Assembly: GCA_963821095.1 (NCBI GenBank) | Contig: CAWGCJ010000002.1 | Location: 360,954-424,953 of the forward strand | Direction of reading: 5' to 3' | Source of the DNA: an uncultured Acidimicrobiia bacterium | Lineage (GTDB): Bacteria; Actinomycetota; Acidimicrobiia; Spongiisociales; UBA5794 | DNA length: 64,000 nucleotides | Part shown: positions 5,224-63,289 of the stretch, one piece after another | Position numbering within the stretch: the stretch's first letter is position 1 | Layout of the letters: each line of letters opens with the position of its first letter | Made by a program: the position numbers and the translations under genes | The notes under the pieces: generated by a model | Seen by the model: the letters and a program-made list of their open reading frames with translations, nothing else | What the model was told of the DNA's origin: nothing | Databases searched by the model: none

Positions 5224-5923
5224 TCACAAACCTCCCCAGCGGGAAGGTGGCCAGATGATCACAAAGGCCCGGCCGACGACGTCATCGACCGGAATGGGTC
5301 CAAATACCCGACTGTCAGAACTCGATCCACGGTTGTCGCCCATGACAAAGACATAGCCCTCTGGTATCAGTTCGGGGCCAAAGTCCGACGTCTGCACCCC
5401 TGGTGCCAGGTACGGCTCCTCGATCGGTGTGCCGTCGATCATGACCACCCCGCTGCGGATGCTGATCGGTCTCGCCCGGCAGCGCAATGACCCGCTTGAT
5501 GAACTCCGATCGGGGCGCCGAGAGCCCAACCGATTCCGCGACATTCCGCAACGCCGAGCCCAGCAGCGACTCGCCGTCGGATCCCTCGTCGTTGGGGTCG
5601 TCAAACACGATGACCTGGCCGCGCTTGATGTCGCCAAACCGGTACGACAGCTTGTTGACCATGATCCGATCATTGATCTGGAGCGTCTCGACCATCGATT
5701 CGGAGGGAATGTAGAAGGACTGGAGCACGAAGGTCTTCAGCAAGACCGCTGCGACGAGGGCAACCAGGAGCAGCAGCGGCAGTTCCCTCCAGAACGAGCG
5801 CTCGGCCGCCACCTGATCCGCCTCATCACGCGCCGTTGCGCGCATCTCGTCAACGGCCTCATGGGCGCCGGAGAAGAGATCCGAGGATTCGGAGGGCAAC
5901 GGATCGAGCATTGAGGTGGTCAC
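5224..5923 (-). CDS. lepB: Signal peptidase I, paralog 1, with an apparent frameshift near 5440-5470.
   Basis: The N-terminal part (ORF 5315..5923) carries the catalytic-region motifs (...IPSESMVETLQINDRIMVNKLSYRFGDIKRGQVIVF...IKRVIALPGE) and then turns to nonsense. The true C-terminus is in ORF 5224..5673 (...DGTPIEEPYLAPGVQTSDFGPELIPEGYVFVMGDNRGSSSDSRVFGPIPVDDVVGRAFVIIWPPSRWGGL). It is near-identical in organisation to the intact paralog at 6641..7327. Confidence 0.6.
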
Positions 5924-6640: not shown

Positions 6641-7327
6641 CTACAACCCGCTCCACCGACTGGGGGGCCAGATGATCACAAACGCCCGGCCGACGATGCG
6701 ATCCCCATGGATCGGCCCGGTGCTGCGACTGTCGAGCGACGACCCGCGGTTGTCACCCATCACGAAGAAGTGGTCCTGGGGGATCAACTCTGGTCCAAAC
6801 TTGCGCATGGAGACATCGTCCGCCAGGTACGGCTCGTCAATTGCCGTCCCGTCGATGAAGACCTTGTTGTTGCGGATTTCCAACGTCTCGCCGGGCAGGC
6901 CGATGACTCGCTTGATCAGGTCGGAGTCGGGGGTGGAGAGCCCGATCGATTCTCCGATGTTGCGCAAGACGACCGTCGGCAGCGATTCCTCCTGCGCCGA
7001 CTCCGGCTCGAACACAACAACCTGTCCACGAGCAACATCTCCGAAGCGGTAGGACAGCTTGTTCACCAGGACCCGGTCGTTGATCTCAAGCGTGTCGACC
7101 ATCGACTCCGAGGGGATGAAGAAGGCCTGGACAAGAAACGTCTTGATGACGACGGCAAGAACAAGAGCGATGAGCACCAAGACCGGCAACTCGCGCCAGA
7201 ACGAGCGTTCCTTCTTCTTGGTCTTTTTGTCGGCCTCTGCCGACTCTTCCGGGACCACGGTGTCAACCCCGGCTGGGTCGAGCGGATCAGGGGTCGCCTG
7301 ATCGAAGGGTGTCGGAGGAACCGCCAA
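6641..7327 (-). CDS. lepB: Signal peptidase I, paralog 2 (intact).
   Basis: The 228-aa ORF has a TM anchor, the SESM Ser box, the KRVIGLPGE Lys box and the GDNRGSSLDSR box. Confidence 0.85.
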   Translation of the reverse strand: MAVPPTPFDQATPDPLDPAGVDTVVPEESAEADKKTKKKERSFWRELPVLVLIALVLAVVIKTFLVQAFFIPSESMVDTLEINDRVLVNKLSYRFGDVARGQVVVFEPESAQEESLPTVVLRNIGESIGLSTPDSDLIKRVIGLPGETLEIRNNKVFIDGTAIDEPYLADDVSMRKFGPELIPQDHFFVMGDNRGSSLDSRSTGPIHGDRIVGRAFVIIWPPSRWSGL

Positions 7328-35281: not shown

Positions 35282-38200
35282 TCAGGCCTCGACCCGGGCG
35301 AGTCGCTTGGCAATGACCTTGGACGACGCTCCCGGTTCCATGGTGACGCCGTACAGGATATCGGCAGCTTCCATGGTCTGTTGCTGATGGGTAATGATGA
35401 CCAACTGAGCGGACTCGCGCAAGGTGTCAACCAGTCGCAGGAACCGCCGGAGGTTGGCGTCGTCGAGGGCCGCCTCGACCTCGTCGAGCACGTAGAACGG
35501 GCTGGGCCGGGCACGGAAGACGGCGAAGAGGAACGCCAGCGCCGCCAGTGATCGTTCGCCACCGGAAAGCAGGCTGAGCCTGCCGACCTTCTTGCCCATC
35601 GGCTGGGCTTCGATCTCGACACCGGTGATGAGCGGATGGTCGGGGTCGGTCAGCCGGAGTCGGCCGCGTCCACCCGGGAAGACCAAAGCGAAGTTCTCCT
35701 CGAAGAAGCCGGCAATGTCGTCGAACGCTCCTCGGAAGAGATGCGCCATCTCCTCATCGAGCGCGTCGATCACCTTGAGAAGTTCGCGTCGGGACTCCTC
35801 GAGGTCTGCGAGCTGTGCGTCGAGCATCTCAACCTCGCCGGCCAGTTCACGGTACTCGGCGGCGGCCAGCGGGTTGATCGGCCCCATTCGACGCAGGCTG
35901 GCTTCTGCCATCGCCAGCGCCTCGGCGTGGCTGGTGTCGCCTTCGCGCTCAGGCTCGAGGGCGGCGAGTGCCTCCTCCTCGGTGCAGTCGGCATCACGGC
36001 GGAGACCTTCGGCGACGGACTCATCTCGCACCCGCAGTTCGGCCAGTTCGACCGCCAGCGAAGCGGCGCGGTCCTTGGCCCCCGAGATGGCCCTCTCCAA
36101 TTCCGACTGGCGACGGTGGGCGGCAGTGAGGTGGTTGTCGGCGATCCCGGCACGCTCTCGCAGTTCGCGCTGACGGGTCCGCAGGGCCTCAACGTGGTCT
36201 CGGATGATCTCGGCGGCGCGGCGGGCTTTGTCCTCGACCACGGCCAACCGATCGATCACGGCGGGATCGACGGGCGCAACCTCCAGGTCATCAAACTCTG
36301 CGGTGGCGGCGGTGAGCCGAGACTCGAGGAGCTTGCGCCGTTCCATCGCCCCGGCGAGGGTGCCGGCAGCCTCTTCGCGAAGTCGCCGGGCCTCGTCGCG
36401 GCGCCGTGCCACTTCTTCACGGCGGCGATTGAGTGCGTCCCACGCTTCCTGGCGGACCTTCTCCTCGCCTTCGAACTCCTCGACTCGGCGACGCAGGCTC
36501 TCGATGCGCTCATCGCGGGTGACGGCGGCGGCCTCCAGCGACCGTCCACGTTCATCGAGGCGTTCGATCTCGGCGGCGCCTTCGGCCTGGGAGCGCTCCA
36601 ATAGTCCCATCGCCTCGGTGAGCCCGGCCAGCCGAGCCTCGAGCGCTTCGAGTGCTTCGAGCGCCGTACGCTCCTGGTCGCGAGCGGTGTTGAAATCGCG
36701 GCGACCGCTGGTGTGTGAACTCTCGCTGCGAGCAAGGTTGCGCTCAGCGATCTCGAGGGCCACCTTGGCTGCCTCTAGGGCGGCTGGCCCCGCACCGTCG
36801 GCCTCGGCGAGATAGAGCCCCTGCGACGTCACCACATCACCTTCGGGGGTCACCGCACGAATCTCTGGATGCTGCTGCACCACTGCCCACGCCGCCGACC
36901 AACCCTCGCAGAGGACGACGTCGCCGATGAGTGCCCCGGCCAGGTCGCCGTCGGTGTCCGGTCCGAGCAGGTCGATCAGGGCGTCAAAGCCACGTTCTGC
37001 GGCGACCGAGCGCGCCGGTGGCTCAACGGCGTTGCTCGGACCGCTTCCCACAAATGCCACACCGCCATAGCCCTCGGAGCGCAGCGATCCGGCCGCCTCT
37101 CGTATGGCTTCATCGCCGGAGACCACAAAGGCATCTCGCCATAGCCCAAGTGCACCATCGACCGCCACGGCGAGTTCGGCAGGCACGTCGAGGCGGGCCA
37201 CAAGCGGACCGAGTACCTCGGCAGCGTTGGCCGCCAGTTCCCGAGCAGCCGGGTCACCGATGCCTGCCAGCGATGCCTCGAGGGCATCGACCCTGGCGTT
37301 GGCCGCCGCCAAGGCGACGTGATGGTCCTGGTGGTCGACCTCGACACGCTCCCAGTGTTCCTGTGCCGAGCTGCGGGCCGCCCGTGCCAAGGTGTAGGCC
37401 TCCTGGGCCACGCCAACCTCCGAGTCGGTCGAACGAATGTGTTCGTTGAGGCGGGCTGCCTCCGACTGTTCCTCGGCGATGCGGGACTCGACAACGTCAC
37501 GGCGGTGCTGAGTGGCCTCGGCCTCGCGGTGATCCCGCTCGGCTGCCGTCTCCAGGGCCCGCAAGTCGCCGCGCAGATTGGCGACGACGCCTTCGGTGGG
37601 GAGCTGGATCTGCTCTGCCAGCGAGCGTTCCTCGTCTTCCATCGCCTGCAGGGTGACTTCGCGCCGGCCGGCGAGGGCCTGGGCCTGTTGCTCTTCCTTG
37701 GCCGATGCCGCGATCTCGGCGATGAGGTGGTCGCGTTCGGCGACCAGGTCATCTCGACGCTCGCCGGCGCCTCGCAGCCGGCTCTCCAGCGAGTGGCGCC
37801 GTTCACGGCTGACGAGCCCGATGCGCTGGAACCGCTCGGCCACGGTCTCGAGTCGGGCGGCGGCGGCCGTGTCGCGCTCCAGGCTGCGGCCGACTTCACC
37901 CGCGGCCCCACGCAGTTGGTCCAGGTTCCCCACCAACACTGCGAGTTCTTGGGAGTCCTGCTCGATGGCGGCAACCAGCTCGGCGCGCTCCGCAGTGGCG
38001 ACCTCGAGTCGCTCCCGCAGGCTGCGCAGAGTCTCTCCGCCGATCCACATCCTGAGGGCCAGGACTTGTGCTCTGACGGAGTCGTAGCGCTCGGCCGCGT
38101 TGGCCTGGCGTTTGAGAGGTCGCAGCCTGCGCTTCTGCTGGTCGAGGAGGTCGATCAACCGGTGCACGTCGATCTCGGTTTGCCCCAGCCGCCGTACCGA

Positions 38201-38728
38201 GCGGTCGCGCCGGCCCCGGTGCTTGGTGATCCCGGCCGCTTCTTCGATGACGGCTCGGTGCTCGTCCGGCCTGGCATTGAGGATGTTCCCGATCTGGCCC
38301 TGGCCGACCAGCACGTGCTGGTGGCGGCCCACGCCACCGTCGGAGAGCAATTCGTGGAGGTCGAGCAGGCGGCACGGGGTTCCGTTGAGCTCGTATTCGG
38401 AGGTGCCGTCGCGATAGAGGCGGCGGGTCATGGAGACTTCGTCGAGTTCGATTGGGAGGAAGTGATCCGTGTTGTCGAACGACAGAGTGACCTCGGCCCG
38501 TCCCAGCGACGGTCGGGTGGCCGTCCCGGCGAAGATGACGTCATCCATGGACTCGGTGCGCAACACGCTGGTGGCTTGGGTGCCCATCACCCAGGCAAGG
38601 GCGTCGAGCAGGTTGGACTTGCCCGACCCGTTCGGGCCCACCACGACGTTGACCCCCTCGTGGAATTCGAGGCGGGTCCGATCGGCAAACGACTTGAAGC
38701 CGACGAGCGAAAGCGTCTTGAGCAGCAA
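35282..38728 (-). CDS. smc: Chromosome segregation protein SMC.
   Basis: The 1148-aa ORF has an N-terminal Walker A (GPNGSGKSN), long coiled coils, a hinge, and a C-terminal signature LSGGE plus Walker B. Confidence 0.95.
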   Translation of the reverse strand: MLLKTLSLVGFKSFADRTRLEFHEGVNVVVGPNGSGKSNLLDALAWVMGTQATSVLRTESMDDVIFAGTATRPSLGRAEVTLSFDNTDHFLPIELDEVSMTRRLYRDGTSEYELNGTPCRLLDLHELLSDGGVGRHQHVLVGQGQIGNILNARPDEHRAVIEEAAGITKHRGRRDRSVRRLGQTEIDVHRLIDLLDQQKRRLRPLKRQANAAERYDSVRAQVLALRMWIGGETLRSLRERLEVATAERAELVAAIEQDSQELAVLVGNLDQLRGAAGEVGRSLERDTAAAARLETVAERFQRIGLVSRERRHSLESRLRGAGERRDDLVAERDHLIAEIAASAKEEQQAQALAGRREVTLQAMEDEERSLAEQIQLPTEGVVANLRGDLRALETAAERDHREAEATQHRRDVVESRIAEEQSEAARLNEHIRSTDSEVGVAQEAYTLARAARSSAQEHWERVEVDHQDHHVALAAANARVDALEASLAGIGDPAARELAANAAEVLGPLVARLDVPAELAVAVDGALGLWRDAFVVSGDEAIREAAGSLRSEGYGGVAFVGSGPSNAVEPPARSVAAERGFDALIDLLGPDTDGDLAGALIGDVVLCEGWSAAWAVVQQHPEIRAVTPEGDVVTSQGLYLAEADGAGPAALEAAKVALEIAERNLARSESSHTSGRRDFNTARDQERTALEALEALEARLAGLTEAMGLLERSQAEGAAEIERLDERGRSLEAAAVTRDERIESLRRRVEEFEGEEKVRQEAWDALNRRREEVARRRDEARRLREEAAGTLAGAMERRKLLESRLTAATAEFDDLEVAPVDPAVIDRLAVVEDKARRAAEIIRDHVEALRTRQRELRERAGIADNHLTAAHRRQSELERAISGAKDRAASLAVELAELRVRDESVAEGLRRDADCTEEEALAALEPEREGDTSHAEALAMAEASLRRMGPINPLAAAEYRELAGEVEMLDAQLADLEESRRELLKVIDALDEEMAHLFRGAFDDIAGFFEENFALVFPGGRGRLRLTDPDHPLITGVEIEAQPMGKKVGRLSLLSGGERSLAALAFLFAVFRARPSPFYVLDEVEAALDDANLRRFLRLVDTLRESAQLVIITHQQQTMEAADILYGVTMEPGASSKVIAKRLARVEA

Positions 38729-38789: not shown

Positions 38790-39059
38790 CTACCGAACGG
38801 CGAAGCTGGTGATGGTCGGGTCCGGCTCCGCAGCCCGCAGGCGCACCGCAGCCACGCTGGCGTGCCGCGGCCCTTCAGCAAGGTAGGCCCGAAATGCGTC
38901 GAGCGTGGCTGAGTCACCTTGGGCAAAGACTTCTACCGAGCCATCAATTCGGTTGCGGACCCACCCGGTCACGCCGAGGAGATCAGCTTGGTGACGGGTC
39001 GACCAGCGGAACCCGACGCCCTGCACCCGCCCGGTGACGTGGCCGGTCAGCGCCTGCAT
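38790..39059 (-). CDS. acyP: Acylphosphatase.
   Basis: VTGRVQGVGFRWSTRHQADLLGVTGWVRNRIDGSVEV matches the acylphosphatase signature. Confidence 0.9.
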   Translation of the reverse strand: MQALTGHVTGRVQGVGFRWSTRHQADLLGVTGWVRNRIDGSVEVFAQGDSATLDAFRAYLAEGPRHASVAAVRLRAAEPDPTITSFAVR

Positions 39060-39066
39060 GGTGATC

Positions 39067-39118
39067 GGTCACGTTGTGGTTTCATCCCAGACCACGGTAA
39101 TGACCGAAACGCCGTCGG
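39067..39118. repeat. Direct repeat copy A (52 bp, 50/52 identical to copy B). It duplicates the last 15 codons plus stop of the lipoprotein gene at 39762..40259.
   Basis: tcacgttgtggtttcatcccagaccacggtaatgaccgaaacgccgtcggca versus tcacgtcgtggtttcatcccagaccacggtaatgaccgaaccgccgtcggca at 39762. Confidence 0.85.
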
Positions 39119-39761
39119 CAAGAGCTGGCTTTCTGTGGAGAGTGGGTGTTAGGGTTGGAGGAGGGTTGAGTAATGTGATTGTGTGGAAGGTGTTTGGTGA
39201 TTGGTGGAGTTTGCGTTGTGGAGTGATAGCGTGGGTGTAGTGTAGGTGTTGCGCTGATGTTTGACTCACGCGATTTCTGGTGAGAAACGAGTCGGTACGC
39301 CGAAGGTACGAGTTGTTGAAGTGGTAGTTGCGCTGGATTGGTGAACTCGTGATGAGGAAGCGGCCTCAAAGTGGTATGGCTCTATGACTCCTCGCCAGAC
39401 ACGGATCGGAAACTCGGTGTCGATGACGATCGGTAGCTCCACGAACTTCGGCGACTTGTCGGGTGCTGCGCCGCGGAGCAACGCCTACAACCAACAGTCC
39501 GAACGCAATCGCCAACGCAATGCGTGGTCGCACTCCCTCCTTGCAGAAAGCGCACAGCTTGTGTCGAACGCGCACGTAGCGCCGAAGGTAGAGTCGAAGG
39601 ACACTGCCAGGCGTTGCGCGCGATCGACCGAGAGCTGCCACCCAAACGCTCAGGGTCGTCTCACTTAAGCAGTGTGTGTGAACAGCAGAAGAGCAGATGA
39701 AGCAATGTAGCAAGACTATATGGATAAGCGGAAGCATGTACAGGAAGAGAGGGGGGAGAGA
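39119..39761. other. Compositionally anomalous ~640-bp non-coding segment enclosed by the 52-bp direct repeats. GC is ~50% against a genome background of ~68%, and the first ~170 nt are G/T-rich and C-depleted on the + strand.
   Basis: Read directly from sequence. There is no convincing ORF. Candidate ORFs 39082..39369, 39366..39737 and 39384..39668 have atypical composition. Confidence 0.6.
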
Positions 39762-39813
39762 TCACGTCGTGGTTTCATCCCAGACCACGGTAATGACCGA
39801 ACCGCCGTCGGCA
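39762..39813. repeat. Direct repeat copy B, forming the 3' end of the lipoprotein gene.
   Basis: See copy A. Confidence 0.85.
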
Positions 39814-40259
39814 CCGTCAAGACCAAGTAGCCCGATGGTGGCGCCTCCGGGAAGCCCTGCCTGCGGTGAATCGCCGAAGTACGGGCCCTCGGAAAAAGCG
39901 ACGCCGCGCAGCACCGCACTGCCGGTGGTCCTGCCGCGCTCCCAACCGAGAGCGACGGTGACAGCGCCCTCCCACACACAGGTCTCGTCCTCGGGGCATC
40001 GAGAGTCCTCGACCACCTCGACGAAGCGCACCGTCGTCGCACCCGACCCAAGCCCGACGATGTCGCCCACATCCATGGTGAACGGCACACCTGGAGCGGC
40101 TACCCACAATGAGGCGGGGACTGCCGTAGCCACCGGTGTCGTACCCGGCTGTGCCGGAACGGTGGTGCTGGTCGATGCCGAACCGTCGTCCCCGCATGCA
40201 CTCACGACCAGCGCCACCGCAGCAACCAGGGCAAGGAGTGCGACGTGTCGGCGTTTCAT
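39762..40259 (-). CDS. Small lipoprotein of unknown function.
   Basis: The start MKRRHVALLALVAAVALVVSACGDDG has a VSAC lipobox. It ends ...GGSVITVVWDETTT. The upstream 135 codons of ORF 39762..40673 are antisense to the intergenic region. Confidence 0.6.
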   Translation of the reverse strand: MKRRHVALLALVAAVALVVSACGDDGSASTSTTVPAQPGTTPVATAVPASLWVAAPGVPFTMDVGDIVGLGSGATTVRFVEVVEDSRCPEDETCVWEGAVTVALGWERGRTTGSAVLRGVAFSEGPYFGDSPQAGLPGGATIGLLGLDGADGGSVITVVWDETTT

Positions 40260-40392: not shown

Positions 40393-42081
40393 ATGAACCG
40401 TTTCCGTGTCCTTCTCGGGTTTGTGTTGGGGGTGTCGCTCTCGTTGGCGGCTATTCCTGGGGCGGACGGCGCCGCGGTGCCGGGGGAACGGATCTTGTAT
40501 GTGGATATCCCGGCCTCGTTCGATGTGCACGTGATGGACCAGGACGGGTCCAACGACTCGGTGCTGATCGAGCGGGGCGGCTCGCCGGCCGTGTCGCCTG
40601 ACGGGCAGTGGGTGGCATACTCGAACGGAAAGCTGATGGTCGCCCCTGTTAACGGTGGTGGCGACCCGGTCATCGTGTTCGAGTCCGGCGAGGACCAGAC
40701 CTACTCGTCGTTTTCGTGGTCCCCGGACTCGCGACGTCTGATTTTCTACGTACGGACGACCAAGAATGAGGATGTTGAGCATGAGCCCTCGTACTTCGAC
40801 GTGTGGATGGTGAACAGGGACGGGTCAGGGCTGGTGAATCTCACGAACACACCGGTCGCGGTCGAGTTCTTTCCCTTGTGGTTCCCGGACGGGCAACGGA
40901 TCCTGTTCACATCCATGCCGGCTCCGTGGGCGGCGCCGGATGAGCGAGGCCTGGCAGTGATGGACGTCGGTGCGGCCAACGGGTATGAAGTAATCGCTCA
41001 GGAGCCGGGCTTGCACTTCTCAACCACGTACGCAGGTTTCGTCAACGACAGTCGGCAGGTGATCATGCCGGCGAGACCGGTGCTGAACCCGGATCCGGAG
41101 AACCCGCAGTATGGGCCGAGGGATCTGTGGCGTGTCGATATCGCCTCGGGCCATTCGAGTCTCTTGCTGGGTGGCAACACCGACAACAACATGGCAGTGA
41201 TGGACGTGTCCACCGACGGGTCGATGATGCTGTATGCGTCCTACTCAACGACCGCGTCGACGCTGTGGTTGGCGGACGACAACGGCGGCAACCGGACCAA
41301 GCTGTACAAAGAGGCCGGGTTCGCGGTGGGCACCGCTCTGTTCAACAGCGACGACACACTCGTTTTGTTGAACACGATCAACGGTGACACGGACTACATC
41401 GTGGTTAAGGATCTCGCCACCAGAGTTGCGAAAACGGTACTTTCCGGCGAGTCGCTGGATAGCCCGCAGTGGGTTGCCCCTGGGGTGTTGTGTGATGGTG
41501 TGGTGGCGACGATCACCGGTACCGACGGTGACGACACCCTGATAGGCACATCGGGTGACGATGTCATCGTTGGGTACGGCGGGGATGATGTGATCGAGGG
41601 CCGCGGCGGCGACGATGTGATCTGCGCCGGGTACGGCAACGACACCGTGCGCGGCGAAGCCGGCAACGACACCCTCCTCGGTGGTCCCGGCCAGGACGAA
41701 CTCCGTGGCGGCGCCGGCAAAGACACGGTGCGGGGTGAGTCGGGCAACGACACCCTCTACGGCGGGAAAGGCAAAGACGTGATCCGGGGCGGCGACGGCG
41801 CCGACTGGATCCACGGTCAATGGCGCCCCGACCGTCTCTACGGGAACCTCGGCCAGGACGTCATCTACGGCGGCGACGACAATGACCTGCTCGACGGCGG
41901 CAAGGCCAACGACAAACTGTACGGCAGTGCCGGTGACGACACCGTTGCGGGCAACAAGGGCGACGACCACCTCTCCGGAGGACCCGGCGATGACACCCTC
42001 GATGGGGGACCCGACATTGACGTCGTCAACGGCAATGCCGGCACCGACACCTGCACAGGCGAAACCACCCTCAACTGCTGA
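40393..42081 (+). CDS. Secreted TolB-like beta-propeller (PD40 repeats) protein fused to C-terminal hemolysin-type (RTX) Ca-binding repeats.
   Basis: Signal peptide MNRFRVLLGFVLGVSLSLAAIPGADG. PD40-like motifs SPDGQWVAY, WSPDSRRLIF and WFPDGQRILF are present. At least 15 tandem GGxGxDxL nonapeptides follow ([33 protein letters not shown]...). Confidence 0.75.
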   Translation: MNRFRVLLGFVLGVSLSLAAIPGADGAAVPGERILYVDIPASFDVHVMDQDGSNDSVLIERGGSPAVSPDGQWVAYSNGKLMVAPVNGGGDPVIVFESGEDQTYSSFSWSPDSRRLIFYVRTTKNEDVEHEPSYFDVWMVNRDGSGLVNLTNTPVAVEFFPLWFPDGQRILFTSMPAPWAAPDERGLAVMDVGAANGYEVIAQEPGLHFSTTYAGFVNDSRQVIMPARPVLNPDPENPQYGPRDLWRVDIASGHSSLLLGGNTDNNMAVMDVSTDGSMMLYASYSTTASTLWLADDNGGNRTKLYKEAGFAVGTALFNSDDTLVLLNTINGDTDYIVVKDLATRVAKTVLSGESLDSPQWVAPGVLCDGVVATITGTDGDDTLIGTSGDDVIVGYGGDDVIEGRGGDDVICAGYGNDTVRGEAGNDTLLGGPGQDELRGGAGKDTVRGESGNDTLYGGKGKDVIRGGDGADWIHGQWRPDRLYGNLGQDVIYGGDDNDLLDGGKANDKLYGSAGDDTVAGNKGDDHLSGGPGDDTLDGGPDIDVVNGNAGTDTCTGETTLNC

Positions 42082-46298: not shown

Positions 46299-46771
46299 GT
46301 CGCGTACCTCTCCTTGATGGCAACGGCGACGTTGTCGGGTACGAGATTATCGACCGCGCCACCCAATCCAGCCACTTGCTTGACGAGCGACGACGACAGG
46401 TAGCCGTACTCGGGCTTCGTAGCCACAAACAGCGTAACGATGCCGGAGAGGTGCCGATTCATCTGGGACATCTGAATCTCGTAGTCGAAGTCCGTCATCG
46501 CCCTGAGTCCCTTGACGATGACGTTGATATCGCGCTCCGCGGCGAAGTCGACGAGCAGGCCGTCGAAGGCATCGACCTCGACGTTGTCCCACTCGGCGCA
46601 GCACTCTCGCAGGATCTCCATCCGCTCCTCATCGCTGAACAAGGGAGACTTCGAGGGGTTCCGCACGATCGCGACCAAGACCCGATCGAAGATCGAGGCG
46701 CAACGTTCGATGACGTCGAGATGCCCCTTTGTGGGTGGATCAAAACTCCCGGGCACTAGTGCCGCGATCAC
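46295..46771 (-). CDS. coaD: Phosphopantetheine adenylyltransferase.
   Basis: PGSFDPPTKGHLDVI contains the H/TxGH motif. Length is 158 aa. Confidence 0.9.
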   Translation of the reverse strand: MIAALVPGSFDPPTKGHLDVIERCASIFDRVLVAIVRNPSKSPLFSDEERMEILRECCAEWDNVEVDAFDGLLVDFAAERDINVIVKGLRAMTDFDYEIQMSQMNRHLSGIVTLFVATKPEYGYLSSSLVKQVAGLGGAVDNLVPDNVAVAIKERYAT

Positions 46772-47295
46772 GCGCTCTCCTTCTCAAACCGCCACAGTTC
46801 GGTGTCCCCGTACCGACGGCGATCCGTCTGCACCAGACCTGCTGGAAGAGTCGGCGCCTCTCCACCGTACCGGCGATGGACCACCACCGTTGCGGCTTCC
46901 GAGAGACAAGGTGCCAACTGTTCGAGGACCGTTGCCAGCGACGCTAGCGGGAGGGCGTAAGGCGGGTCAACGAATGCCAGGTCAAACGTGTCGTGGCAGC
47001 GGGCGAGGAACGCGCCGACATCCTCGCCGACAACGTCACCCCCGAGCCCAACAGCGTCGATGTTCTTGCGCAGCACATCGAGCGCCGACCGACCCTTCTC
47101 GACGAAGACGACCCGGCGGGCGCCCCGGCTGAGCGCCTCCAAACCGATCGAGCCGGTCCCGGCGTAGAGGTCGATGACGTCGGCGTCGACGACCCGCCCA
47201 CCAAGCGACGAGAACAAGGCCTCCTTGGCTCGTCCCGTGAGCGGCCGGGTGTCGCCCCCCTGCGGTGAGACCAAACGGCGCCCCTTGGCCGACCC
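46768..47295 (-). CDS. rsmD: 16S rRNA (guanine966-N2)-methyltransferase RsmD.
   Basis: MRIIAGSAKGRRL...RPLTGRAKEALFSSLG...DLYAGTGSIGLEALSRGA...FVDPPY are present. This is the last 175 codons of ORF 46768..49938. Confidence 0.85.
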   Translation of the reverse strand, partial: GSAKGRRLVSPQGGDTRPLTGRAKEALFSSLGGRVVDADVIDLYAGTGSIGLEALSRGARRVVFVEKGRSALDVLRKNIDAVGLGGDVVGEDVGAFLARCHDTFDLAFVDPPYALPLASLATVLEQLAPCLSEAATVVVHRRYGGEAPTLPAGLVQTDRRRYGDTELWRFEKESA

Positions 47296-47571
47296 GGCGA
47301 TGATCCTCATCGGCTCGCCCCGTTCTGCAAGGCGGGGCAACACATCTCGCGGGAGCTGCCCCCTCCGACGCCGCCTGCGGCGGCGCCACCTCCCCCGCTT
47401 CGCGAGGGAGGGCACAGAAGGGCCACTACTCCACCCAACACGTTTGCAGCGGCCGGGCACCGAACGGCCGTAGGTCCACGACCACGATCGACCTGCGATG
47501 CCCTCCCCCGGCTTGCCGGGGGAGGTGCCGAGGAGTCTTCGACGAGGCGGAGGGGGCGGCCCCCGCAAAAG

Positions 47572-49797
47572 GCGCAGAGGGCGCGCGTAGCTGCGGAATA
47601 GCCACTCTTCGTCCTTGCCGAGGAGGGCTTCGACCTCGGCAGCGATCTCGGGGTGGCCTTGCAAGCCGGGATCGGCGGCCACCAGGGCAAATGCCTCCTT
47701 GCGGGCCGTGACCAGGACCTTGGCGTCGCGAAGGATGTCGGCGAGCTTCAAGTCCTTCATACCGGCTTGGCGGGTTCCGAACACCGTGCCCTGGCCGCGG
47801 ATCCGCAGATCCTCTTCGGCTAGTCGGAAACCGTCGGTGCTGGCGACCATGGCCGCCAAGCGTTCTTCGCCCTCGGGCGTCGACGGGTCGGCCACCAGCA
47901 CACACGTTGCTGGATGGGTGCCGCGGCCGACTCTCCCCCGCAGCTGATGGAGTTGGCTCAGGCCAAATCGATCGGCGTCTTCCACGACCATGACGGTTGC
48001 GTTGGGTACATCGATCCCAACCTCGATGACCGTCGTTGCCACCAACACATCGATGTCACCTGCCCGAAACTCATGCATGACCCGGTCCTTGTCGGCGGGG
48101 CGGAGTTGCCCGTGGATCAGGCCAAGCCGCAGCTCGGGGAACACATGCTGGAGCCGCTCATATTCTGCGGTGGCCGACACCACTTCGAGTTTGTCGCTGT
48201 CATCCACCAACGGGCACACCACAAAGGCCTGCCTGCCGGCGTTCGCCTCACGCCGCACCAACTCGTACACCCGCTCCAGCGACGCCGCATCGCCTCCAAC
48301 GTGGTGGGTCTCGACCGGCGTCCTGCCGGGAGGCAGCTCGTCGAGAACGGAGACGTCGAGGTCCCCGTAGAGCGTCATCGAAAGGGTGCGCGGGATGGGC
48401 GTTGCCGTCATGATCAGCAAATCGGGGTCATACGACTCCGCCTTCTCGCGCAGGCTCACCCGTTGGTAGACGCCGAAGCGATGCTGCTCGTCGACCACGG
48501 CCATGCCCAGTCGATCGAAATGCAGCCCCTCCTGGATGAGGGCGTGGGTCCCCACCACCAGGTCGACGGTGCCGTTTCCGACCCAAGTGCCAACGTCGGC
48601 CCGGCTCGCCGCTCCCGGTGGCGTGAAGTTGGTCTCTGCGCTGTTGGAGGTCAACAGGGCCATTCGCACAAAGGCCCGATCTTCATCCGCACCATCGCCT
48701 GCAACGGCAAAGAGGCTTTCCATGCCTGTCGGTGCCGACGGATCTTCGAGCGGCGGCCCAAGCCGCGCCCCCACGATCAGTTCTCGAATACCGAGGAAGT
48801 GTTGCTCGGCGAGCACCTCGGTTGGCGCCATGACGGCACCTTGATAGCCACTCTGGATTGCCGTCAACAACGCGGCAACGGCCACCACCGTCTTGCCCGA
48901 ACCAACCTCGCCCTGGAGGAGCCGATGCATCGGGTGCGGACCAACCATGTCGGTTTGGATCTCAGCGATCGTGCGTAGCTGGGCACCGGTCAGTTCGTAA
49001 GGCAACGCGGCGATGAAGTCGGCAACCAGGTAGCCATCGGCGGAATGCGCCACACCGTGTGACGCATCGAGCTGGTGCTGCTTGCGCAACGCCAGGGCGG
49101 CCTCGAGGCGGAACAGTTCGTCGAACACCAGGCGGCGGCGAGCGGCATCGGCGTCTTCCTTCGACTCTGGGAAGTGGATGTCAGCGATGGCTTCGTCCCG
49201 CGTCACCAGCTTCAGTCGTTCCCGCATATCGGTCGGGAGAATCTCGGTGATCGGTCGGGAGCGTTGCAGAGCGTTTGAGATCGAGTTCCTGATCTGGAAG
49301 GGACGGAACCCTCCCGCCGACGAATGGATCGGCACGACCCGCCCCGTCACCAGCGAATCGTCGCCCCACGTGTCGACGTCGGGGCTCTTCATCTGCAGTT
49401 TGCCGCGAAATCGTTCGGCCTTACCGGAGAGGACGACCTCACTGCCCTCTTCGATCCTCAGGTAGGGGTTGAACCACACTGCGGTAACCACGCTGGTGCC
49501 GTCGGTGATCACCGCCGTGATCATCGTGCGCCCGCGCGAGATGCGGCGCCGCACAACGGAGGTCACCGTGCCGCCGACGGTGACCTCTTCACCCAAGGGC
49601 ACGGCGGCCAGGTCGAAGATCTGCGACCGATCCAGGTAGCGACGCGGCACGTGCAACAGGAGATCCGCAACGCTGTGGATCCCGGCTTCGCCGAGTTTCT
49701 TGGCCGACTTCGGCCCGATCCCCTTGACTTCCGTAGCGGGTACACCACTCAAGAACGCCAACGACCGGCCAGTCGATTGCTCTACCCCAGACATAGC
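47572..49797 (-). CDS. recG: ATP-dependent DNA helicase RecG. No in-frame stop separates it from rsmD, so the 3' boundary given is an estimate.
   Basis: The probable start is MSGVEQ. The wedge, DEAD-box helicase (GSGKT, DEQH), helicase-C and the C-terminal ...FGTRQAGMKDLKLADILRDAKVL...EALLGKDEEWLFRS are all present. Downstream the frame continues into a Pro/Arg/Gly-rich, non-protein-like stretch. Confidence 0.8.
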
Positions 49798-49902
49798 CCA
49801 AGAGCATACGACCGACCTGTGCCGAGCCCGCACACCGCCGCTGTGGCGTCCTAGGCGGGCTGGCGTATGAAGGCGCGTTGCGGTCTTGGCAGGTAACGCT
49901 GT

Positions 49903-49908
49903 TACAAT
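49903..49908 (+). promoter_or_regulatory. Candidate -10 hexamer (TACAAT) upstream of rpmB. An aggagg RBS lies at 49921.
   Basis: The sequence reads ...ttgcggtcttggcaggtaacgctgttacaatcc...aggaggtctccccaacATG. Confidence 0.3.
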
Positions 49909-49936
49909 CCCGCCCGCTTCAGGAGGTCTCCCCAAC

Positions 49937-50125
49937 ATGTCTTATCGCTGTGAGGTTTGCGGCAAAGAGCCGTGGGTCGGCAAGCAAGTCAGCTTCTCGC
50001 ACAAGCGCTCCAGCCGTCGCTGGTTGCCGAACATTCAACGCGTCCGCGTGAAGCACGGCAGTAACTCGAAGCGAATTCGGGTCTGTACGTCGTGCATCAA
50101 GGCGGGCAAGATCGAGAAGGTCTGA
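49937..50125 (+). CDS. rpmB: 50S ribosomal protein L28.
   Basis: [38 protein letters not shown]... The start is internal to ORF 49886..50125, and an RBS is present. Confidence 0.9.
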
Positions 50126-62279: not shown

Positions 62280-62309
62280 AAGGTACGACATCGCTCCGAC
62301 CCGCGTCAA
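62280..62309 (-). promoter_or_regulatory. Candidate sigma-70-type promoter on the - strand: -35 TTGACG, 18-nt spacer, -10 TACCTT.
   Basis: + strand cgtcaa at 62304-62309 and aaggta at 62280-62285. Confidence 0.4.
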
Positions 62310-62318
62310 CCCAGATCT

Positions 62319-62356
62319 GTAGTTGGTTTTCGCGTTTCGAAGATAGTTTTCGCGAG
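62319..62356. promoter_or_regulatory. X-box 2, paralogous to X-box 1. It also lies ~100 bp upstream of the + strand nuclease gene.
   Basis: See X-box 1. Confidence 0.45.
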
Positions 62357-62458
62357 TGGACCTATTCGCCTCGGTTCGGCCCCTTTTCCGCTCCCAAACC
62401 GGCACCAAAACTACATCAATGTGGTTTTCGTCACACCGGTCCCGTATGATCGATTCTG

Positions 62459-63289
62459 ATGAGCATCGAGACCTTGCCGACCAAACCACCGGAGTTATTG
62501 CAGACTCTCTCGCCGAGCCGCGCCAGCGACTTCAAGGTGTGCCCGCAACTCTTCAAGTTCCGTGCGATTGACCGGATCGACATGCCCGCTACGGTGCACC
62601 AAGCGCGGGGAACCACAGCCCACCTCGCCCTCCAGCGACTCTTCGACGACGCACCCGAAGCGCGCACACCGGAACGACTCTTCGATCTCTTCCGCGAAGC
62701 GTGGGGCGAACTGCGCGGCAACGAGGAGTACGGCGCCCTGTTCGAGAGCGTCGAAGCGGAACGGGAGTGGGGCATCCAGAGCATGGGGGTGCTTGCCAAT
62801 TACTTCGGGATCGAGGACCCCCGCACGTTCGAGCCGCTCGACCGAGAACTCGACATGCTCGAAGAACTCGATGGAATCACGATCCGGGGCATCCTCGACC
62901 GGATGGAGGAGGGTCCAGACGGTGTCATCATCACGGACTACAAGACGGGTAGGGCACCCCCGGAGCGCTACGCCATCCCGGCCTTCTTCGCCCTCAAGAT
63001 CTACGCGCTCCTGATCCGGCAACGCACCGGGCAGACCCCAGTCGGGCTCAAGCTGATGTACCTCAACGGGCCGACCGTCTACGAGATCCCCGTCAATGAC
63101 ACCCAACTCGACGCCATGGACCGACAGCTGCGTGCCTTGTGGGCGGCCATCAATCGCGCCATCACAACGGAGACCTTCCCTCCCCGGCCCGGCAGGCTCT
63201 GCAACTGGTGCCAGTACCGCGACCTCTGCCCGGCCTTTGTGGACACCACGGCATCGGATGACGCTGCGCCGCTCCAGGCGGTGGGCTGA
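62459..63289 (+). CDS. PD-(D/E)XK nuclease superfamily protein (RecB/Cas4-like fold with a C-terminal Cys cluster).
   Basis: The 276-aa ORF has the nuclease core (...IRGILDRMEEGPDGVIITDYKTG...), a QxxxY-like region, and C-terminal CNWCQYRDLC. A TATGAT -10-like hexamer lies 14 nt upstream of the ATG. Confidence 0.7.
   Translation: MSIETLPTKPPELLQTLSPSRASDFKVCPQLFKFRAIDRIDMPATVHQARGTTAHLALQRLFDDAPEARTPERLFDLFREAWGELRGNEEYGALFESVEAEREWGIQSMGVLANYFGIEDPRTFEPLDRELDMLEELDGITIRGILDRMEEGPDGVIITDYKTGRAPPERYAIPAFFALKIYALLIRQRTGQTPVGLKLMYLNGPTVYEIPVNDTQLDAMDRQLRALWAAINRAITTETFPPRPGRLCNWCQYRDLCPAFVDTTASDDAAPLQAVG

What the first reader, a model, noticed from the sequence alone, without database searches (positions are those of the whole stretch)
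39067..39813. A 640-bp low-GC, strand-skewed segment bounded by 52-bp direct repeats that duplicate the 3' end of a lipoprotein gene
The final 15 codons plus stop of the lipoprotein gene (DGGSVITVVWDETTT*) recur 50/52 identical ~700 bp downstream, immediately before the acyP start. The enclosed segment is compositionally foreign, at ~50% GC against ~68% for the surroundings. Its first ~170 nt are almost C-free on the + strand, G/T-rich with GGG runs and a TTAGGG. It has no credible ORF. The geometry of an att-like duplication of a gene's 3' end flanking foreign DNA matches a site-specific integration scar. The enclosed DNA is far too small to encode an integrase. It could therefore be a decayed integrative element, a miniature non-autonomous element that targets this sequence, or an acquired non-coding RNA gene.
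Basis: seen in the sequence. Interest (0 to 1): 0.65.

Follow-up and report, generated by a model that had tools for sequence, protein, structure and literature searches.

The report
Small inserted gene cassette, garbled assembly
The odd low-GC, one-strand-skewed, gene-less stretch is a badly assembled copy (about a quarter of its bases dropped) of a real 0.86-kb strain-variable insertion that carries one small secreted-protein gene and is bracketed by a duplicated gene end, as if a site-specific recombinase put it there.

Summary
The 52-nt direct repeat (39069-39120 / 39762-39813, 50/52, 33-nt exact core) is real and non-random. Four contigs from other samples show the empty site, with the lipoprotein stop 10 nt before the acyP ATG. 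In three of them the flanks are identical or nearly so.

The features that made the segment look exotic are not biology. The window's 642-nt insert is an exact subsequence of an 862-nt insert found at the same site in two independent assemblies (L008, L015). It differs by about 220 deleted bases in 111 runs and no substitutions. 63% of the lost bases are G on the coding strand, and losses are densest at both edges.

The true insert has 59.6% GC and an intact 157-aa signal-peptide protein gene ("X") with a Shine-Dalgarno sequence. X belongs to a small family named only in Acidimicrobiia MAGs.

A 53%-identical homologue elsewhere sits in a 1.2-kb cassette. That cassette is flanked by 87-nt repeats duplicating the 5' half of tRNA-Gln up to the anticodon loop. 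Neither cassette, nor any of about 50 window ORFs, encodes a recombinase.

Best reading: an integrase-less, single-gene integrative cassette (CIME-like), garbled here by consensus drop-out. It is not a non-coding RNA, and the gene's apparent decay is not shown to be real. Interest is modest.

The parts
39762..40259 (-). Lipoprotein gene (165 aa; signal peptide with a lipobox-like ...VVSAC). This is the target gene whose 3' end is duplicated.
   Evidence: ORF list. The identical 165-aa protein is encoded on empty-site contig L001. An orthologue lies between fpg and acyP in L004 and L007. There are only weak lipoprotein-type family hits.
39762..39813 (-). Lipoprotein-side repeat copy (attL-like): the last 16 codons plus TGA. 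Alleles are GGT...ACG.
   Evidence: The block of identity ends at the stop codon, give or take 2-3 nt.
39121..39761 (-). The insert: a garbled copy (642 of 862 nt kept) of a single-gene cassette. Bases were lost in 111 runs. About 72% of bases are missing at the lipoprotein edge, 0-10% in the centre and 30-48% at the acyP edge.
   Evidence: Alignment and subsequence tests against L008 and L015.
39149..39533 (-). Remains of gene X, the 157-aa secreted protein. 383 of 474 nt are kept, the ATG reads GTG, and the frame is broken many times. The Shine-Dalgarno AAGGAGG lies just upstream (about 39536-39545).
   Evidence: The intact gene is at L008 2890-3363 and L015 361-834. It has 16 homologues at 52-99% identity.
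39069..39120 (-). acyP-side repeat copy (attR-like): a displaced pseudo-copy of the lipoprotein 3' end. Alleles are GTT...ACA.
38790..39059 (-). acyP (acylphosphatase, 89 aa), the downstream neighbour. In empty-site contigs its ATG lies 10 nt after the lipoprotein stop.
   Evidence: (PF00708).

Best explanation
Shown:
(1) In some strains of this bacterium a cassette of about 0.86 kb lies between the lipoprotein gene and acyP. The organism is probably an Acidimicrobiia bacterium, judged from the source names of two of the X homologues. The cassette consists of about 400 nt of non-coding leader, one gene (X) for a 157-aa signal-peptide, all-beta protein, and about 60 nt of trailer. It is bracketed by two copies of the last roughly 52 nt of the lipoprotein gene.
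(2) Other strains and relatives have the uninterrupted site.
(3) The copy in this window is corrupted. About a quarter of its bases, mostly G on the coding strand, were dropped without a single substitution. That alone produces the low GC, the strand skew, the lack of an ORF and a spurious promoter-like site.

Inferred:
(4) The drop-out is a consensus or polishing artefact of a long-read assembly. It arose where the sample mixes occupied and empty haplotypes, so that gap votes compete with base votes column by column.
(5) The cassette entered by integrase-type site-specific recombination, or was last moved that way. The incoming DNA carried its own copy of the target's 3' end (attP-like; alleles GTT(T/C)G...ACG). 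Recombination inside the 29-33-nt shared core regenerated an intact lipoprotein gene and displaced a fragment next to acyP. The recombinase must act in trans, because none is encoded in the cassette.
(6) The same logic applies to a diverged X cassette at tRNA-Gln in another genome. There the repeat ends in the anticodon stem-loop.
For: Artefact:
- The window insert is an exact subsequence of the L008 and L015 inserts (642/642; shuffles reach at most 484). There are 220 deleted bases, 138 of them G, and 0 substitutions, with an edge-to-centre gradient.
- L008 and L015 agree with each other except for 1 substitution and one 2-nt indel. Both encode the intact ORF.
- The ORF is conserved in 16 homologues with invariant Cys and Gly positions.
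- Outside the insert the window is 100% identical to L001.
- The promoter-like site is absent from the true sequence.

Real, polymorphic insertion:
- The occupied site appears in three assemblies: the window, L008 and L015.
- The empty site appears in L001, L002, L003, L004 and L007.

Integrase-type logic:
- The two copies differ at 2-3 positions although the flanks are identical. So the second copy came in with the insert and is not a target-site duplication.
- The empty site combines the lipoprotein-side copy's allele at the upstream mismatch (GGT) with the acyP-side copy's allele at the downstream mismatch (ACA).
- The identity block stops at the stop codon.
- A 53%-identical X gene in L009-L014 (six contigs from six samples) lies in a 1191-nt cassette. 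It is flanked by 87-nt repeats (85/87) made of tRNA-Gln nt 1-42 plus 45 nt upstream, ending in the anticodon stem.
- A tDNA plus a displaced fragment in the same orientation is the published island signature. 5' fragments occur in 159 of 3919 islands, and anticodon-centred sites are common (PMC4383910).
- Both cassettes share one layout: intact target, then about 400 nt, then X, then the displaced fragment.
Against: - No recombinase, attP circle or second insertion site of this particular cassette was found.
- Only two genomic contexts of the X family could be fetched.
- The non-coding parts of the two cassettes share no detectable similarity, so no common recombinase-binding sequences are evident.
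- The inverted repeat in the core (CGTGGT-N10-ACCACG) is not statistically remarkable.
- L008 carries the downstream mismatch alleles the other way round: ACA on the lipoprotein side, ACG on the acyP side. That means a second crossover point, gene conversion or a consensus error.
- The cause of the base drop-out is inferred, because no reads were available. The G-specific bias is not explained in detail.
Confidence: 0.55

Rival explanations
1. Remnant of a larger integrative element. A prophage or ICE/IME integrated at the lipoprotein 3' end, and another at tRNA-Gln. Each later lost everything but an att-proximal cargo gene by internal deletion. That would make this a classical CIME that never moved as a 0.9-kb unit.
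For: - CIMEs are defined as elements that lost integration and transfer genes but kept attL and attR (PMC5704250).
- There is no recombinase in the cassette.
- The att-like repeats and regenerated target are as in the best explanation.
Against: - Flanks of occupied and empty alleles are 100% identical over 1.75 kb. That leaves little time for integration followed by decay.
- The same small cargo family would have to be the sole survivor twice, at two different sites.
- No full-length element was seen at this site in any fetched relative.
- The cassette has no similarity to phages, plasmids or viral contigs.
- Several X-homologue contigs are only about 0.9-1.3 kb long. This weakly suggests a discrete unit bounded by assembly branch points.
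Confidence: 0.2
2. No site-specific recombinase was involved. The acyP-side copy is an old remnant of a truncated lipoprotein gene. The intact lipoprotein gene plus X arrived, or was rebuilt, by homologous or illegitimate recombination in an indel-prone spot. Empty alleles then arise by deletion between the repeats.
For: - Relative L006 has just such a 5'-truncated lipoprotein remnant of about 150 nt directly upstream of acyP. It carries the same GTT allele as the window's acyP-side copy.
- G at the variable Thr codon is also the state in L004, L006 and L007.
- Homology may extend 7 nt further (GGTCTTG) if a 6-nt gap is allowed (by eye).
- The locus also gained a PD40/RTX gene between fpg and the lipoprotein gene in this lineage.
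Against: - It needs several events.
- The left junction sits exactly at the stop codon.
- The empty state, with the same 10-nt spacer, is shared by strains and by relatives at about 88% identity, so it is ancestral.
- It does not explain the independent 87-nt repeat ending in the tRNA-Gln anticodon stem around a homologous gene.
Confidence: 0.15
3. The window's sequence is correct as it stands. On this reading it is a genuinely degraded, G-depleted allele or an acquired non-coding RNA gene.
For: - The sequence folds slightly better than shuffles on both strands (z about -2).
- There is a promoter-like site on the minus strand.
Against: - 111 deletion runs with zero substitutions next to perfectly conserved flanks is not a known mutational pattern.
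- There is no Rfam match.
- The undamaged version is protein-coding and conserved.
- The promoter-like site is itself created by the missing bases.
Confidence: 0.04
4. The insertion itself is an assembly chimera created by the 52-nt repeat.
For: Only short contigs besides the window show it. The empty site is the more commonly recovered form.
Against: - Three separate assemblies from different accessions show the same two junctions.
- The two repeat copies carry distinguishing alleles linked to insert-specific sequence.
Confidence: 0.02

Closest known systems
CIMEs (cis-mobilizable elements): decayed ICE/IME remnants that keep attL and attR (PMC5704250)
   Same: [quoted passage not shown] It has no integrase or transfer genes. 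It sits at a gene's 3' end with the gene regenerated.
   Different: It is only 0.86 kb with one intact cargo gene. It has no detectable similarity to any ICE, IME, phage or plasmid, and no accreted partner element. The host is probably Acidimicrobiia, whereas the CIME examples in the review read here are streptococcal. A related cargo gene recurs at a different att site.
tRNA/tmRNA-gene genomic islands as defined by Islander (PMC4383910)
   Same: This applies to the related cassette in L009. It has a full tRNA-Gln plus a displaced fragment in the same orientation and correct configuration. The repeat ends in the anticodon stem-loop, the commonest crossover class.
   Different: It has no integrase and is 1.2 kb long, so it fails Islander's integrase filter and its 2-kb minimum. 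The displaced piece is the 5' fragment, the minority class (159 of 3919). The window's cassette targets a protein gene, not a tDNA.
Prophages that integrate in the 3' end of a protein gene and carry a substitute 3' end (phage 21 and e14 in icd; from my own knowledge, not checked here)
   Same: The incoming DNA supplies a near-identical replacement for the last codons. The differences are synonymous (ACG against ACA, both Thr) and the stop codon is kept.
   Different: Those elements are full prophages with their own integrase.
Integron gene cassettes and Xer-dependent elements (IMEX), which are inserted by a recombinase encoded elsewhere (from my own knowledge)
   Same: It is a small, single-gene unit, or at least recombinase-free, and would depend on a recombinase supplied in trans.
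   Different: No attC-type or dif-type site was noted, though neither was tested for specifically. The repeats here are copies of the local target gene, not of a fixed recombination site.
Local consensus drop-out in long-read metagenome assemblies at strain-variable sites (a general technical phenomenon; from my own knowledge)
   Same: There are only deletions and no substitutions. In the centre they are mainly homopolymer shortenings. The damage is confined to a presence/absence-polymorphic segment, and the flanks are perfect.
   Different: The severity (up to 72% of bases lost at an edge) and the strong bias towards one base on one strand are unusual. I cannot explain them without the reads.

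Membership tests
Site-specific integrative element (integrase-type island or prophage) | Flanking direct repeats (attL and attR) that share a core with the empty site (attB) | tested here: met
   The repeat is 52 nt with a 33-nt exact core. Empty sites carry a single copy with a recombinant combination of the two copies' alleles.
Site-specific integrative element (integrase-type island or prophage) | The target gene is regenerated and a fragment is displaced to the far end | tested here: met
   The lipoprotein ORF is intact and its protein sequence unchanged. The displaced 3' fragment lies next to acyP, and identity ends at the stop codon. L009 shows the same arrangement with tRNA-Gln and a 5' fragment.
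Site-specific integrative element (integrase-type island or prophage) | An integrase gene lies inside the element | tested here: not met
   The true insert holds one 157-aa ORF with no Pfam, NCBIfam or PHROG match. No recombinase was found among about 50 window ORFs.
Site-specific integrative element (integrase-type island or prophage) | An excised circular form or attP junction exists | not testable with these tools
   No reads were available. The contig collections gave no attP-type junction.
CIME (cis-mobilizable element) | It retains attL and attR but lacks integration and transfer genes | tested here: met
   As in the rows above. The definition comes from PMC5704250.
CIME (cis-mobilizable element) | It derives from an ICE or IME, shown by residual homology to one or by accretion with one | tested here: inconclusive
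   There is no similarity to plasmids, phages or viral contigs at DNA or protein level. ICE-specific databases were not available.
MITE or other non-autonomous transposon | Terminal inverted repeats, a short identical target-site duplication and multiple copies | tested here: not met
   There are no terminal inverted repeats in the window copy or in L015. The flanking repeat is 52 nt and not identical. There is no second copy in the window, and no copy turned up in the collection scans, which used exact patterns and were limited. No predicted protein matched any frame of the window's insert.
Structured non-coding RNA gene | A match to a known RNA family, or conserved structure without coding potential | tested here: not met
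   No Rfam match has E below 2. The region is protein-coding in its intact form.
Assembly or consensus artefact (composition only) | The sequence differs from independent assemblies of the same locus only by missing bases, while flanks agree perfectly | tested here: met
   It is an exact subsequence of L008 and L015, with 0 substitutions. Flanks are 100% identical to L001.

The most novel reading that the evidence does not exclude
X cassettes would be a family of recombinase-free, single-gene integrative cassettes of about 0.9-1.2 kb, in what are probably Acidimicrobiia. Each would carry a copy of the end of its target: a protein gene's 3' end here, and the promoter plus 5' half of tRNA-Gln elsewhere. 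Each would be moved as a unit by a tyrosine recombinase encoded elsewhere. That would make them integron-cassette-like in economy but island-like in att logic.
Probability: 0.25. Interest if true: 0.6.

Novelty: new member of a known kind. Interest (0 to 1): 0.3.

Why it matters
Two things follow.

First, a caution. The most 'foreign-looking' 640 nt of this 64-kb window is an assembly defect, not biology. Compositional outliers at strain-variable sites in metagenome-assembled genomes can be moth-eaten consensus sequence. Testing whether such a stretch is a subsequence of independent contigs exposes this quickly.

Second, the underlying biology is a clean natural example of a very small, integrase-less insertion. 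It has the full att signature, it is polymorphic among near-identical strains, and a related cargo gene shows the same signature at a tRNA gene. If such cassettes move as units, island-finding tools would miss them systematically, because tools such as Islander demand an integrase and at least 2 kb. They could be an overlooked route of single-gene gain in environmental Actinomycetota.

Tried and rejected
- Rfam on both strands of the window region, and of L008, L009 and L015, found nothing for the insert. tRNA scans of the window, L004, L006 and L008 found none.
- Folding gave z of about -2 on both strands, which is uninformative.
- Pfam and PHROGs on every ORF of the window's insert found nothing.
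- A six-frame 'polyprotein' of the window's insert against 5.8 billion proteins found nothing at E<=0.01. In hindsight the frame is broken too often for any stretch to score.
- blastn of the insert against plasmids and phages found nothing.
- Exact attL-junction and core patterns in viral contigs found nothing.
- The one metagenome scan, with a degenerate core, gave only the empty-site relative L004.
It hit a chance 24-nt match in Marinobacterium nitratireducens, which forfeited a second scan.
- Exact look-ups of insert ORFs, of the PD40/RTX protein, of SMC and of the 104-aa lipoprotein call were not on record. The source contig (629,653 bp) could therefore not be fetched.
- X against phages, plasmids and viral contigs found nothing.
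- X against PDB folds gave no significant match; the model has pLDDT 78 and is all-beta. NCBIfam found nothing.
- The non-coding flanks of the two cassettes show no similarity above shuffles.
- The hairpin in the att core is not significant.
- A literature search for the sample accessions returned no papers.
- The MITE, integron-cassette and IMEX readings were considered and rejected on anatomy.

Full report
**1. What is in the window**

All genes at this locus read on the minus strand. SMC is at 35282-38728 and acyP at 38790-39059. The 165-aa lipoprotein gene is at 39762-40259.

The last 16 codons plus stop of the lipoprotein gene (39762-39813) recur at 39069-39120, which is 10 nt upstream of the acyP ATG. 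The match is 50/52. Its 33-nt exact core is found twice in the window, against none in 100 shuffles.

The 642 nt in between is the window's extreme for both low GC and GC skew. GC is 0.49-0.55 against 0.645 for the window, and skew reaches +0.92 on the + strand.

The segment has no long ORF, no Rfam match and no tRNA. Folding energies are only about 2 sd below shuffles on either strand.

**2. The site is polymorphic and the empty state is ancestral**

Exact-protein look-ups returned three short contigs from other samples. In each, the lipoprotein stop is followed 10 nt later by the acyP ATG.
- L001 (JGI) is 100% identical to the window on both sides over 1.75 kb.
- L002 is also identical over its shorter overlap with the window.
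- L003 is a different strain with several SNPs.

The k141 contig names suggest an assembler word longer than the repeat. That is my inference.

More distant relatives have fpg-lipoprotein-acyP-smc, again uninterrupted. These are L004 and L007, at about 88% identity. A third relative, L006, has only a 150-nt 3' remnant of the lipoprotein gene between fpg and acyP.

The window's two repeat copies differ at two positions, while the flanks of the occupied and empty alleles are identical. The second copy is therefore not a fresh target-site duplication. It arrived with the insert.

The alleles are as follows.
- Empty site: GGT...ACA.
- Window, lipoprotein side: GGT...ACG.
- Window, acyP side: GTT...ACA.

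This is what a crossover inside the shared core between a resident GGT...ACA site and an incoming GTT...ACG site would give.

**3. The turn: the exotic composition is missing bases**

A cluster mate of the lipoprotein led to L008 (ENA ERZ25039514, 3.5 kb). There the same site is occupied by a longer insert of 862 nt, followed by the second repeat copy.

Aligning the two inserts gives 641 matched columns, 221 gaps in the window, one apparent extra T in the window and no substitutions. The extra T and one of the gaps come from how the aligner placed them. The window's insert is in fact an exact subsequence of L008's. The longest common subsequence is 642/642, whereas shuffled versions reach 475 on average and 484 at most.

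The missing bases have a clear pattern.
- 138 of them are G on the minus strand. Only 49% of G's are retained, against 83-91% of the other bases.
- They fall in 111 runs, of which 58 are single bases.
- The deleted fraction is 0.72 at the lipoprotein edge, 0-0.10 in the centre and 0.30-0.48 towards acyP.

A third, independent assembly confirms the long version. L015 is a 922-nt Logan contig of ERR11443730 that begins and ends inside the repeat. It differs from L008 by one substitution and one 2-nt indel. The window is a subsequence of it too.

The true insert has 59.6% GC. It carries an intact 474-nt ORF preceded by AAGGAGG.

In the window 383 of those 474 nt survive, at 39533 down to 39149.
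- The ATG has become GTG.
- The 'C-free' G/T-rich stretch is the 3' third of the gene and its trailer with the G's removed.
- The TTAGGG is the reverse complement of CCC-TAA at the stop.
- The sigma-70-like site found in the window at 39742-39715 does not exist in the true sequence.

A hundred-odd deletions, no substitution and perfect flanks do not form a plausible mutational history. I conclude this is a consensus artefact.

The probable cause is inferred and cannot be tested without reads. This is a strain-variable segment, so reads from empty-site cells contribute gaps in every column of the insert during polishing. Columns with the weakest base support are then dropped. In the centre the losses are mostly shortened homopolymers, such as GG to G. 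The strong bias towards one base on one strand remains unexplained.

**4. What the insert really is**

The ORF, here called X, encodes a 157-aa protein. It begins with an N-terminal signal peptide (MRPRIALAIAFGLLVVGVAPAAAAP...) and has two invariant cysteines.

X has 16 homologues of 52-99% identity in metagenomes. Two of them are named by NCBI as hypothetical proteins of Acidimicrobiia MAGs. A profile search of 1.84 billion representatives finds only 37 clusters, nearly all stand-alone proteins of about 150-165 aa.

It matches nothing in Pfam, NCBIfam or PHROGs. The predicted fold is seven long beta-strands (pLDDT 78) and has no significant PDB neighbour. X is also absent from the phage, plasmid and viral-contig collections. 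Its function is unknown.

**5. A second cassette with the same signature**

The most distant homologue with a long contig is P0032, at 53% identity. It is found in six contigs from six samples (L009-L014), in a different neighbourhood next to glmU-prs.

There the gene lies in a 1191-nt segment flanked by 87-nt direct repeats (85/87; L009 5517-5603 and 6795-6881). The repeat consists of nucleotides 1-42 of a tRNA-Gln(UUG) gene plus 45 nt upstream of it. It ends in the 3' arm of the anticodon stem, and one mismatch falls at tRNA position 38. Only the copy joined to the 3' half is a complete tRNA.

A full tDNA plus a displaced fragment in the same orientation is the published signature of integrase-mediated islands. 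Anticodon-centred sites are the commonest class, and 5' fragments are a known minority at 159 of 3919 islands. Such finders, however, require an integrase and at least 2 kb, and this cassette has neither (PMC4383910).

Both cassettes share one layout: intact target, about 400 nt, X, 60-320 nt, displaced fragment. Their non-coding parts show no similarity above shuffles.

A CGGTTGCAGAAT motif occurs twice in tandem near one end of the L009 cassette and once near the other. I did not test what it means.

**6. Mechanism**

The following points are shown.
- The insertion is real and polymorphic.
- The second repeat copy came in with the insert.
- The target gene is regenerated, with a synonymous change.
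- The identity block ends at the stop codon.
- There is no recombinase in the cassette or among about 50 ORFs of this housekeeping region. The region runs ffh, rpsP, rimM, trmD, rplS, lepB ... ftsY, smc, acyP | lipoprotein, PD40/RTX, fpg, rnc, plsX, coaD, recG.

From this I infer integrase-type site-specific recombination between an attP-like copy on the incoming DNA and the lipoprotein tail, catalysed in trans. That makes the insert an integrase-less integrative cassette. [quoted passage not shown]

Whether it moves as a 0.9-kb unit or is the stump of a larger element cannot be decided here. Three observations lean towards a unit:
- the flanks of the occupied and empty alleles are identical;
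- the same cargo family recurs at two different att sites;
- several X-bearing contigs are only 0.9-1.3 kb long.

The absence of any attP junction, recombinase or second site leaves the question open.

A non-site-specific history also remains possible but needs more events. In it, the acyP-side copy is an old lipoprotein remnant, as in L006, which shares the GTT allele. That history does not explain the tRNA-Gln case.

L008 shows the downstream mismatch alleles swapped between the two copies. This could reflect a second crossover point, gene conversion, or consensus error in that long-read contig. L008 also has a 1-nt insertion that frameshifts the lipoprotein gene.

**7. Verdict**

The repeat and the insertion are real. 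The composition, the skew and the lack of an ORF are artefacts.

The integration-like scar stands. The ideas of a non-coding RNA and of compositionally foreign DNA do not, and the gene's apparent decay is assembly damage.

In novelty terms this is a new, very small member of a known kind: integrase-less att-flanked elements. There is an unproven but testable possibility that X cassettes form a family of single-gene integrative cassettes moved in trans. Interest is modest.

Noticed in passing
L006 3478-3670 (ENA ERZ25039603 contig_25686; SMC at least 90% identical to the window's): In this relative only the last 150 nt or so of the lipoprotein gene remain, directly between fpg and acyP. The PD40/RTX gene is absent too. 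The fpg-acyP interval is an indel hot spot in this clade.
   Followed up: partly
window 40393-42081 (+): A 562-aa PD40 beta-propeller plus RTX-repeat protein gene lies on the opposite strand between fpg and the lipoprotein gene. It is present in the window, in L008 and apparently in L001. In L004 and L007, fpg is followed directly by the lipoprotein gene, so this is a second lineage-specific gene gain at the same locus.
   Followed up: partly
L009 5517-5603 / 6795-6881, and 5634-5657 / 6695-6706: 87-nt direct repeats (the tRNA-Gln 5' half plus 45 nt upstream) flank a 1.2-kb cassette carrying an X homologue. A CGGTTGCAGAAT motif occurs twice in tandem near one end and once near the other, all in the same orientation. 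These could be recombinase arm-type sites.
   Followed up: partly
L009 5657-5890 (+): A 77-aa ORF with CxxC ... CxxxxxC spacing lies in the 400-nt leader of the tRNA-Gln cassette. Gene callers called it on L011 and L012. It has no NCBIfam match and no counterpart in the lipoprotein-site cassette.
   Followed up: partly
window 46768-49938 (-): A single 1056-aa ORF combines RecG domains with a C-terminal RsmD-like methyltransferase domain (PF03602). It is either a real fusion or a missing base that joins two adjacent genes. The defect found in the insert makes it worth checking.
   Followed up: no
window 62281-62520: This is the second-lowest GC patch of the window (about 0.525, skew -0.14), just upstream of and overlapping the start of a PD-(D/E)XK nuclease gene (62459-63289). 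I did not examine it for the same kind of base drop-out.
   Followed up: no
L008 about 2490-2500: L008 has one extra C in the lipoprotein gene (GGGCCTTCCC against GGGCTTCCC). The resulting frameshift makes the gene call an 86-aa product (P0004). The contigs named contig_N in these ENA assemblies carry indel errors of their own.
   Followed up: yes
window 5315-5923 and 6641-7327 (-): Two signal peptidase I (Peptidase_S26) genes lie about 700 nt apart. In the first, the match covers only about half of the profile.
   Followed up: no
L005 2580-2603 (Marinobacterium nitratireducens): A 24-nt CT-rich exact match to the garbled attL junction is a chance low-complexity hit with no extension.
   Followed up: yes
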